64,000 nt of DNA from the human T2T-CHM13v2.0 reference genome, Homo sapiens. Below the pieces are notes generated by a model. It saw only the letters and a list, made by a program, of their open reading frames with translations, made no database searches and was not told the DNA's origin. Positions 7,655 to 8,590 of this stretch are shown here, piece by piece (within the stretch, counting starts at the first letter, position 1; each line of letters opens with the position of its first letter). Location: NCBI RefSeq assembly GCF_009914755.1, contig NC_060940.1; one strand, written 5' to 3'. The translations under genes and the position numbers were made by a program.

Positions 7655-8590
7655 TTACATTAATTGCTAGAAGAGTCGTAAGGAAAAGGATATCGCATTC
7701 TGAAGACTGCACGACATGCTGGAGTGAGGATCCCAGGCCAAGAAAGCAAGTGGGGAGGGGGTCAAAGGAAAGCAGTTCCCTAAAGTGAAATCTGCCATCT
7801 ACCGAGAGCTGGGTGTGAATTCTACCTGGTTCTTTTTCTTCTGGCTAAACCACACTTACTTAATACTGTGTAGCTTTCTCATGACGATCATTTGAAAGTT
7901 GACCTCAACTTATTTATTTACTTATTTAATTATTGACACGGAGTATCACTCTGTCACCCAGGCTGGAGTGCAGTGGTATGATCATGGCTCACTGCAACCT
8001 CCACTTCCCAGGTTCAAGTGATTTTCCTGCCTCAACCTCCTGAGTAGCTGTGATTACAGGTGCATGCCACCATGCCGGGCCAATTTTTGTATTTTTAGTA
8101 GAGACAGGGTTTCATCATGTTGGCCAGGGTGGTCTCGAACTCCTGGCCTCAAGTGATCTGCCCGCCTTGGCCTCCCAAAGTGCTGGGATTACAGGTGTGG
8201 GCCACGGTGCCCAGTCAAACTCAACATATTTACTTGGGAGACGATCTTCATCCTGGGGAAAAACACAGAGTATCTGTAATTATTTCTCCAGTCATATGTT
8301 ATGATCATATTCCACGAACCAAGCACTAGACACCTAAGAGCAATCAGGTGTGTAAGAATTTAAAATTGGAGCAAATATGGCCATAAATGTGTTTTTCAAA
8401 TGACTCTGGTCTCAGCATGAAGAATACTGAGGAAGGATAGATGAAGGTGAAAAGTTAGGAGGCCACAGGAGATGGCCAGGTAAGGTGAGCTCCAGATAAG
8501 AGCCTGAGCTCAAGGGGGTGGCATCTGAGAGGAGGCAGAGAGGTGCTTTGGAAGTAGGATATACTCAGTATTTTTCAAACAGCAGTTGGG
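7655..8590 (-). pseudogene. Unprocessed inverted duplicate of LCMT1 exon 4 (7860-8252, Alu-interrupted) with flanking intron sequence
   Basis: Reverse complement reads gtgtttttccccag|GATGAAGATCGTCTCCCAAGTAAATATGTTGAG [Alu] GTCAACTTTCAAATGATCGTCATGAGAAAGCTACACAGTATTAA|gtaagtgtgg. This is 68/77 nt identical to LCMT1 exon 4 (61687-61763); flanks align with about 61350-61686 and 61764-61995. Confidence 0.92.
7911..8214 (-). mobile_element. Alu inserted into the LCMT1 exon-4 duplicate
   Basis: Full Alu on the minus strand; degenerate duplication gttgagtttgac / gttgaggtcaac on either side. Confidence 0.9.

What the first reader, a model, noticed from the sequence alone, without database searches (positions are those of the whole stretch)
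7655..8590. Hidden inverted genomic copy of LCMT1 exon 4, 53 kb from the real exon
Seen: the minus strand carries LCMT1 exon 4 ([26 protein letters not shown] versus [26 protein letters not shown]; 9 nt differences, 5 non-synonymous and 4 synonymous). Both splice sites are intact and several hundred bp of flanking intron align, so this is a DNA-level duplication, not a retrocopy. An Alu later landed inside the exon. Downstream homology stops about where the ERV LTR begins in real intron 4 (about 61990). Inference: an old inverted partial duplication, possibly predating the ERV; any minus-strand transcript crossing here could splice in an LCMT1-like, Alu-containing exon. The ORF track does not show it.
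Basis: partly seen in the sequence, partly recalled or inferred. Interest (0 to 1): 0.7.

Follow-up and report, generated by a model that had tools for sequence, protein, structure and literature searches.

The report
Dead exon copy in ancient duplication
This is a real but broken, back-to-front copy of one exon of the human LCMT1 gene, one small relic of an old duplication, likely from early primate times, that fills most of the gap between LCMT1 and its neighbour ARHGAP17 and whose copies likely still overwrite each other now and then.

Summary
Observation confirmed: minus-strand 8252-7860 is LCMT1 exon 4 with both splice sites, 9 substitutions (5 non-synonymous, 4 synonymous), unique flanking intron homology and a 316-nt Alu insert that puts stops in frame. 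It is not an isolated copy. The homology skips the 9-kb LTR element of real intron 4 (empty site) and runs on to just before exon 5. It is the right end of a 26-kb inverted block set between two direct copies of a unit spanning ARHGAP17 intron 1 to the 5' half of LCMT1; 60% of non-Alu bases in the 96-kb interval have a local paralog. No dimeric Alu is shared among 40 scorable sites, and unconverted blocks are about 20% diverged, so the event is likely early-primate. Divergence is a mosaic down to 2 mismatches in 557 bp, which points to recent gene conversion. The exon's changes fit neutral decay. Lemurs carry an inverted AQP8 duplicate in the same interval; no human AQP8 relic was found and my tree favours a separate lemur event without rejecting a shared one. 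Verdict: ordinary dead duplicated exon in an apparently undescribed, complex, old duplication.

The parts
7860..8252 (-). LCMT1 exon 4 copy, 393 nt with the insert; stops in the LCMT1 frame from codon 46
7904..8219 (-). 316-nt insert: S-type dimeric Alu, same sense as the exon, with an imperfect target duplication; real exon has the empty site
   Evidence: subfamily from recalled diagnostic motifs
8253..8588 (-). copy of the 3' end of LCMT1 intron 3 (61351-61686), with acceptor; 17.6% substitutions
7679..7859 (-). copy of the start of intron 4 (61764-61959), with donor; 20.7% substitutions
7676..7690 (-). empty insertion site of the LTR element that lies at about 61961-71015 in real intron 4
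6257..7690 (-). copy of intron 4 beyond the LTR element (71008-73060); ends in the pyrimidine tract before exon 5, exon 5 itself absent; 9.5-18% substitutions by block
8589..8879 (+). junction Alu, J-type dimer: 5' flank is the site of the Alu monomer in LCMT1 intron 3, 3' flank is ARHGAP17 intron 1; likely chimeric, right end of the inverted block
8879..13120 (+). direct copy of ARHGAP17 intron 1 (window -91066 to -86212), 4.7-11% substitutions
3499..4903 (-). inverted copy of the adjoining part of ARHGAP17 intron 1 (-93133 to -91711), 15% substitutions
4905..5537 (+). interspersed LTR plus internal fragment; its match to 74771-75138 is generic, not part of the duplication
13741..20372 (+). 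block with the TRIP11 retrocopy; paralogs at -62400..-50765 (direct) and -6871..-5065 (inverted)
20744..28740 (+). direct copy of ARHGAP17 intron 1, exon 1 and promoter (-72769..-62907); exon 1 copy near 28470-28560 on minus has ATG changed, a frameshift and no donor
28979..51574 (+). LCMT1 promoter, exons 1-2 and introns; direct paralog at -48527..-17213 (LCMT1P1 and an exon 2 copy), inverted partial paralog at -17207..-11663
47457..48013 (+). near-identical tract (2 mismatches in 557 bp) shared with the left copy; likely recent gene conversion; covers the annotated alternative exon 47482-47644 and silencer 47667-47909
   Evidence: annotation supplied with the finding
61221..61346 (-). Alu monomer in real intron 3 with its target duplication; its insertion point is shared with the copy
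61687..61763 (+). real LCMT1 exon 4, the source
   Evidence: annotation
61961..64000 (.). left part of the LTR element in real intron 4 (runs to about 71015; terminal repeats 348 of 435 columns identical); absent from the copy

Best explanation
The minus-strand exon is a broken DNA-level copy of LCMT1 exon 4, likely functionless, left by what was likely a tandem duplication in early primates of the stretch from ARHGAP17 intron 1 to LCMT1 intron 4, and likely turned round later by an exchange between two oppositely oriented Alu elements. Shown: the copy, its intron flanks, the empty LTR site, the Alu insert and stops, the direct-inverted-direct layout, both outer junctions, and the mosaic of divergence. 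Inferred: (1) the unit was amplified head to tail, leaving ARHGAP17 intact on the left with a dead 5' LCMT1, and LCMT1 intact on the right with a dead 5' ARHGAP17; (2) a J-type Alu entered the duplicated ARHGAP17 intron; (3) a template switch or inversion joined that Alu to the monomer in the duplicated LCMT1 intron 3, with a second junction at -17213/-17207 that has about 2 bp of microhomology; (4) deletions removed exon 3, exon 5 and the original tandem junction; (5) an S-type Alu entered the already dead exon; (6) gene conversion keeps refreshing patches of the copies.
For: Colinear unique homology on both sides of the exon. Chain of direct blocks -72769..-17213 vs 14734..51569 and inverted blocks -17207..8585. 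The two ARHGAP17 intron pieces that flank the inverted LCMT1 piece are neighbours in the source, one inverted and one direct. Junction Alu has flanks from two loci, and ARHGAP17 intron 1 has no Alu at that site. Exon pN 0.082 and pS 0.28; 5 non-synonymous changes against 5.6 expected if only the copy was free. 29 of 40 scorable Alu sites are empty in the paralog, 6 of them J-type, none shown shared. Least-converted blocks have non-CpG K2P 0.19-0.24. Divergence differs among 26 direct blocks (chi-square 202, 25 df), down to 2 mismatches in 557 bp.
Against: The left arm of the junction Alu is not specially close to the intron-3 monomer (rank 9 of 234), so the crossover itself is not shown. The original tandem junction is not preserved. 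The TRIP11 block sits in a different order in the left copy than in the other two, so more steps occurred than this outline gives, and three-way distances give no single tree. Only 25 codons test neutrality. 117 of 160 Alu-like elements could not be scored. No other primate genome and no RNA data were available; the age rests on recalled substitution rates and recalled Alu motifs. A 5-kb stretch of ARHGAP17 intron 1 (-84999..-80000) was seen only through coordinate searches.
Confidence: 0.8

Rival explanations
1. The whole direct-inverted-direct structure arose in one replication accident with three or more template switches from a single-copy locus, not by tandem duplication followed by a later flip.
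For: Layout and junction types (one Alu homology, one of about 2 bp) resemble DUP-TRP/INV-DUP products (PMC11293582 passages). Three blocks occur three times, the middle one inverted.
Against: The junction Alu is absent from the functional ARHGAP17 intron, so it needed a pre-existing duplicate or a polymorphic template. The inverted block contains LCMT1 intron 4 next to ARHGAP17 intron 1, as a prior tandem junction would. The middle intron-1 copy is closer to the left copy (7.5-11.5%) than to LCMT1 (12-21%), though conversion could do that.
Confidence: 0.12
2. The copy is kept because a minus-strand non-coding transcript splices in the 393-nt exon.
For: Acceptor and donor are intact. Two minus-strand promoters lie upstream: LCMT1-AS1 at 33084 and the ARHGAP17 promoter copy near 28500-28740, under annotated enhancers (annotation).
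Against: No annotated transcript crosses it (annotation supplied). Survival of the sites is expected by chance (0.26-0.68). The promoter copy's exon has lost its donor. Substitutions fit neutral decay and the frame is closed.
Confidence: 0.06
3. The inverted piece is the human remnant of the same ancestral primate event that gave strepsirrhines AQP8_2; the inverted arm once reached AQP8 and humans lost that part.
For: AQP8_2 lies between LCMT1 and ARHGAP17 on the opposite strand (PMC13163493, section 2.5 passage), where an inverted LCMT1-to-AQP8 copy would fall. The human copy's far end is lost, so its length is open. The age estimate overlaps the primate root. AU tests do not reject pre-split topologies (p 0.24 and 0.14). 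Conversion could hide a deep split.
Against: No AQP8 relic by Pfam MIP search (0 of 42 matches in the interval) or by BLAST of AQP8 exon stretches and of 73100-151000 (11 scattered hits, none colinear). With outgroups, all 8 strepsirrhine AQP8 proteins form one clade (98/92, 200 of 200 bootstrap trees).
Confidence: 0.15
4. It is a retrocopy fragment or a chance match of repeats.
For: Part of the downstream flank has a second local copy; one distal match proved to be a generic LTR.
Against: Intron sequence on both sides, single exon, 2 genome-wide matches, shuffle control.
Confidence: 0.01

Closest known systems
Unprocessed (duplicated) pseudogene fragment; LCMT1P1 is the annotated member at this locus
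   Same: Intron flanks kept, disablements, neutral substitution pattern; LCMT1P1 maps to the exon 1 paralog of the same duplication.
   Different: This exon 4 piece and the exon 2 copy near -20390 have no row in the supplied annotation; exon 4 is inverted and cut off from exons 1-2, and exons 3 and 5 are gone.
DUP-TRP/INV-DUP rearrangements (PMC11293582, passages read)
   Same: Inverted segment between direct duplicates, blocks in three copies, one junction at Alu homology and one with about 2 bp microhomology.
   Different: Fixed and very old rather than a patient allele; no large near-identical inverted repeats at the junction; the inverted block has a further internal junction and large deletions, so more than two switches or events.
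Alu/Alu-mediated rearrangement
   Same: Junction element has flanks from two loci and sources in opposite orientation.
   Different: One partner is a monomer; the crossover cannot be placed.
Strepsirrhine AQP8_2 duplicate (PMC13163493)
   Same: Same interval, same inverted orientation, similar inferred epoch.
   Different: Intact gene in lemurs; no AQP8 sequence in the human interval; tree favours a lemur-lineage origin.

Membership tests
Unprocessed pseudogene fragment | Keeps intron sequence and splice sites of the parent | tested here: met
Unprocessed pseudogene fragment | Disabling changes | tested here: met
   316-nt insert, stop at codon 46, neighbouring exons lost
Unprocessed pseudogene fragment | No purifying selection on the copy | tested here: met
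   5 non-synonymous changes vs 5.6 expected; 25 codons only
Unprocessed pseudogene fragment | Not part of a functional transcript | not testable with these tools
   no RNA data; no row in the supplied annotation
Processed pseudogene | Exons joined, introns absent | tested here: not met
Segmental duplication, catalogue definition (1 kb or more, 90% identity or more; recalled) | Identity of 90% or more | tested here: not met
   15.3% substitutions over 1466 columns for the exon 4 segment, 14.1% over 16859 columns for direct blocks; only converted patches pass
DUP-TRP/INV-DUP | Inverted third copy between direct duplicates | tested here: met
DUP-TRP/INV-DUP | One junction within inverted repeats, one by microhomology | tested here: inconclusive
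   Alu/monomer junction and about 2 bp junction seen, but age blurs both
DUP-TRP/INV-DUP | Two template switches in one event | tested here: not met
   the inverted block joins LCMT1 intron 4 to ARHGAP17 intron 1 internally, a third junction
Alu/Alu-mediated rearrangement | Junction Alu with flanks from two loci | tested here: met
Alu/Alu-mediated rearrangement | Switch of diagnostic bases from one donor to the other inside the element | tested here: inconclusive
   rank 9 of 234; the second donor survives only in the junction
Exonised Alu | Antisense Alu supplies a splice site (PMC2330237, abstract start in listing) | tested here: not met
   the Alu is sense and lies inside a pre-existing exon copy
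Same event as strepsirrhine AQP8_2 | Shared junctions in lemur genomes | not testable with these tools
   no non-human eukaryote genome held
Same event as strepsirrhine AQP8_2 | AQP8 paralogs split before lemurs and monkeys did | tested here: inconclusive
   best tree against; AU p 0.24 and 0.14

The most novel reading that the evidence does not exclude
The human ARHGAP17-LCMT1 gap is the fossil of an inverted triplication-like event in the ancestor of all primates; its inverted arm once carried AQP8, survives as the working AQP8_2 gene in lemurs and lorises, and is reduced in humans to this exon 4 stub. AQP8_2 would then be a gene that monkeys and apes lost, not one that lemurs gained, and the copies would have been exchanging sequence for over 60 million years, most recently across an LCMT1 alternative exon and silencer.
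Probability: 0.15. Interest if true: 0.6.

Novelty: new member of a known kind. Interest (0 to 1): 0.3.

Why it matters
The exon itself most likely does nothing. Its value is as a marker. It shows that five or six separately named pseudogenes and lncRNAs at this locus (LCMT1P1, three TRIP11-block pseudogene rows, and the sequence under LCMT1-AS1 and the LINC02175 region) lie in one old rearrangement that gave ARHGAP17 and LCMT1 each a private copy of their shared upstream region. It gives a dated empty site for the intron 4 LTR element. The near-identical tract over an LCMT1 alternative exon and silencer means short reads and variants there can be misassigned, and it would be a case of gene conversion between copies otherwise about 20% apart. 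If the lemur link held, it would reverse the published reading of AQP8_2.

Tried and rejected
Extension of the copy to 5156-5537 vs 74771-75138: rejected as a generic LTR match, no flank homology, not among the 40 scored best genome-wide candidates. Copies of exon 3 (1 match, itself) and exon 5: none. AQP8 relics: none. An Alu at the matching place in ARHGAP17 intron 1: none. Two apparent shared Alus (34395 and 21414): different insertion points and target repeats, so independent; two more pairs are in opposite orientation and were not aligned. The dN/dS figures were off by one base in the right half and are replaced. Searches for primate LCMT1-like proteins were uninformative (2 hits among 8 candidates; 1 among 197). 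Literature: five searches on the locus listed 2, 11, 10, 15 and 4 papers; I saw listings only, except PMC13163493, and no title or abstract start described this duplication. Subscription papers and genome-browser self-alignment tracks were not searchable, so it may be visible or described there.

Full report
1. The observation. The minus strand from 8252 to 7860 is LCMT1 exon 4 (61687-61763) with a 316-nt insert. Acceptor and donor are intact. With Alus masked, 8215-8585 aligns to 61724-61351 and 7679-7908 to 61959-61715. The upstream flank scores 294 against at most 44 in 300 shuffles. A whole-genome search with 8245-8590 found 2 matches among 2 candidates. It is a DNA-level copy, not a retrocopy and not a repeat artefact.

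2. The copy is longer than reported. In a self-comparison of 224 kb (places under 1 or over 64000 lie outside the window) the homology jumps from 61959 to about 71008 and continues to 73060 (6257 in the copy). The skipped 9 kb has terminal repeats at about 61979-62439 and 70348-71015 (348 of 435 columns identical) and a 4-bp target repeat, present once in the copy. So the copy predates this LTR element. Homology ends in the pyrimidine tract before exon 5 (73069-73130), which is absent. Exon 3 has no copy in the genome. A further match at 5156-5537 is a generic LTR and was dropped.

3. The surroundings. A chain of direct blocks links -72769..-17213 with 14734..51569. It includes the ARHGAP17 promoter and exon 1 (copy near 28500; ATG changed, frameshift, donor deleted), LCMT1 exon 1 (the annotated LCMT1P1, donor lost) and exon 2 (copy near -20390, splice sites intact). 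Every paralogous block from another part of the locus between -17207 and 8589 is inverted, apart from one short direct piece at -14967..-14697. Right of the finding, 8879-13120 is a direct copy of ARHGAP17 intron 1; left of it, 3499-4903 is an inverted copy of the adjoining intron piece. Of 66,174 non-Alu bases between -63000 and 33200, 39,844 (60%) have a local paralog hit (this includes some low-copy repeats). The layout is direct, inverted, direct, with the intergenic block, part of LCMT1 intron 1 and the TRIP11 block each in three copies.

4. Junctions. At 8589-8879 lies a J-type dimeric Alu. Its 5' end sits exactly at the insertion point of the monomer in LCMT1 intron 3; its tail runs into ARHGAP17 intron 1 at -91066, where the functional intron has no Alu but has a T-to-A-run site of the kind Alus enter (site preference from PMC3014933 passage). 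That is the flank signature of an Alu-mediated junction. The left arm is not specially like the monomer (rank 9 of 234), so the crossover is inferred. At -17213/-17207 the direct copy of LCMT1 intron 2 (to about 51574) meets the inverted copy of intron 1 (from 39783) with about 2 bp in common. Both junction types are reported in DUP-TRP/INV-DUP alleles (PMC11293582, passages), but this structure has a third, internal junction, so I treat it as working like that class, not as a member.

5. Age. Of 160 Alu-like elements left of 76000, 117 lacked two mappable flanks and 3 mapped too loosely; of the 40 left, 29 have an empty site in the paralog (6 J-type, 22 S/Y-type, 1 unclear), 3 face a deletion or offset with no Alu, and 8 form four pairs that are independent insertions (two pairs by different target sites; two by opposite orientation). 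Typing used recalled motifs. Only the monomer site is shared. AluJo was active at the strepsirrhine split and AluJb at the tarsier split (PMC3014933, passages). The most diverged blocks have non-CpG K2P of 0.19-0.24, the exon 4 flanks 0.19-0.20. With recalled neutral branch lengths (about 0.055 from human to the simian ancestor, 0.11 to the haplorhine and 0.12 to the primate ancestor), twice those values are 0.11, 0.22 and 0.24. The duplication therefore likely dates to early primates, roughly 55-75 million years ago. This is an estimate without any second genome.

6. Gene conversion. Divergence varies from 0.035 to 0.23 among blocks (chi-square 202 on 25 df for the 26 direct blocks; 14.4 on 6 df, p 0.025, within the exon 4 segment). 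Two low-divergence blocks tested are unique sequence with a single paralog. At 47457-48013 there are 2 mismatches in 557 bp, next to 50 in 345 bp. Constraint cannot easily give that; conversion, some of it recent, is the likely cause. Blocks were chosen from BLAST hits, which biases distances downward.

7. Function. pN is 0.082 and pS 0.28. Five non-synonymous changes match the 5.6 expected if the parent stayed constrained and the copy was free from the start; both-free is unlikely (p 0.02), and so is a constrained copy at an assumed pN of 0.02 (p 0.008). If spliced in, the 393-nt exon would stop at codon 46. The splice sites surviving is unremarkable. The supplied annotation has no transcript over it; LCMT1-AS1 ends at 22087. 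I could not test RNA. Most likely it does nothing.

8. The lemur lead. PMC13163493 (passages, Discussion section, supplement part 2 read; figures not held, alignment files not seen) reports a second AQP8 in strepsirrhines between LCMT1 and ARHGAP17 on the opposite strand, from a midpoint-rooted primate-only tree. An inverted arm running on from LCMT1 exon 4 would put AQP8 there. Against: no MIP match in the interval and no AQP8 or distal LCMT1 homology. I built a protein tree from 36 of the 81 hits (13 primate, 23 outgroup; the rest left out as redundant, unnamed or distant). The 8 strepsirrhine proteins form one clade (98/92), unlike the paper's topology; I assigned paralog classes by branch length, not accession. 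Neither pre-split alternative is rejected (p 0.24, 0.14). A separate lemur event at an unstable locus is more likely; I give the shared event 0.15.

9. Novelty. Duplicated exon fragments and old complex duplications are known kinds. Five literature searches on the locus (listings only, apart from PMC13163493) showed no description of this structure, and the exon 4 and exon 2 copies have no annotation row, but subscription papers and browser tracks were out of reach. Verdict: new member of a known kind, interest 0.3.

Noticed in passing
window 47457-48013 vs -23617..-23061: 2 mismatches in 557 bp between copies otherwise 13-20% apart; covers an annotated LCMT1 alternative exon and a RefSeq silencer. 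Likely very recent gene conversion and a read-mapping trap.
   Followed up: partly
window 50233-50424 and 50510-50701: Inverted repeat with 192-bp arms that are 100% identical, 85-bp spacer, in LCMT1 intron 2; a related sequence lies at -36110..-35870. Could fold into a long RNA hairpin; the perfect arms suggest conversion or a young element.
   Followed up: no
window 28250-28800, minus strand: Unannotated copy of ARHGAP17 promoter and exon 1 under the annotated enhancers 28048-29049.
   Followed up: partly
about -20430..-20290 (L008): Unannotated LCMT1 exon 2 copy with intact acceptor and a GT donor where the real exon has GC; LCMT1P1 transcripts could splice to it, though the exon 1 copy has lost its donor.
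   Followed up: no
window 62087 to 70548: The annotated lncRNA LCMT1-AS2 starts in one terminal repeat of the intron 4 LTR element and ends in the other (annotation).
   Followed up: no
window 22087-25168: Two of three LCMT1-AS1 exons lie in the copy of ARHGAP17 intron 1.
   Followed up: no
-10479..-9510 vs -79952..-78986: Unique inverted pair, 3.5% diverged, 70 kb apart, under LINC02175; a possible substrate for inversion.
   Followed up: partly
-6550..-6014 (L010): Tandem array of about six 89-bp units, 91-96% alike, in the inverted TRIP11-block copy annotated as LOC100421169.
   Followed up: no
window 14935-17525: TRIP11 retrocopy, 75% identical to the large exon on contig C14 and joining several small exons; older than or as old as the duplication.
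   Followed up: partly
window 60186-60346 vs 61837-61994: Short direct repeat (76%) on either side of exon 4 in the real gene.
   Followed up: no
AQP8 protein tree: With outgroups, strepsirrhine AQP8 paralogs group together, unlike the midpoint-rooted tree of PMC13163493, which places AQP8_2 with monkeys and apes.
   Followed up: partly
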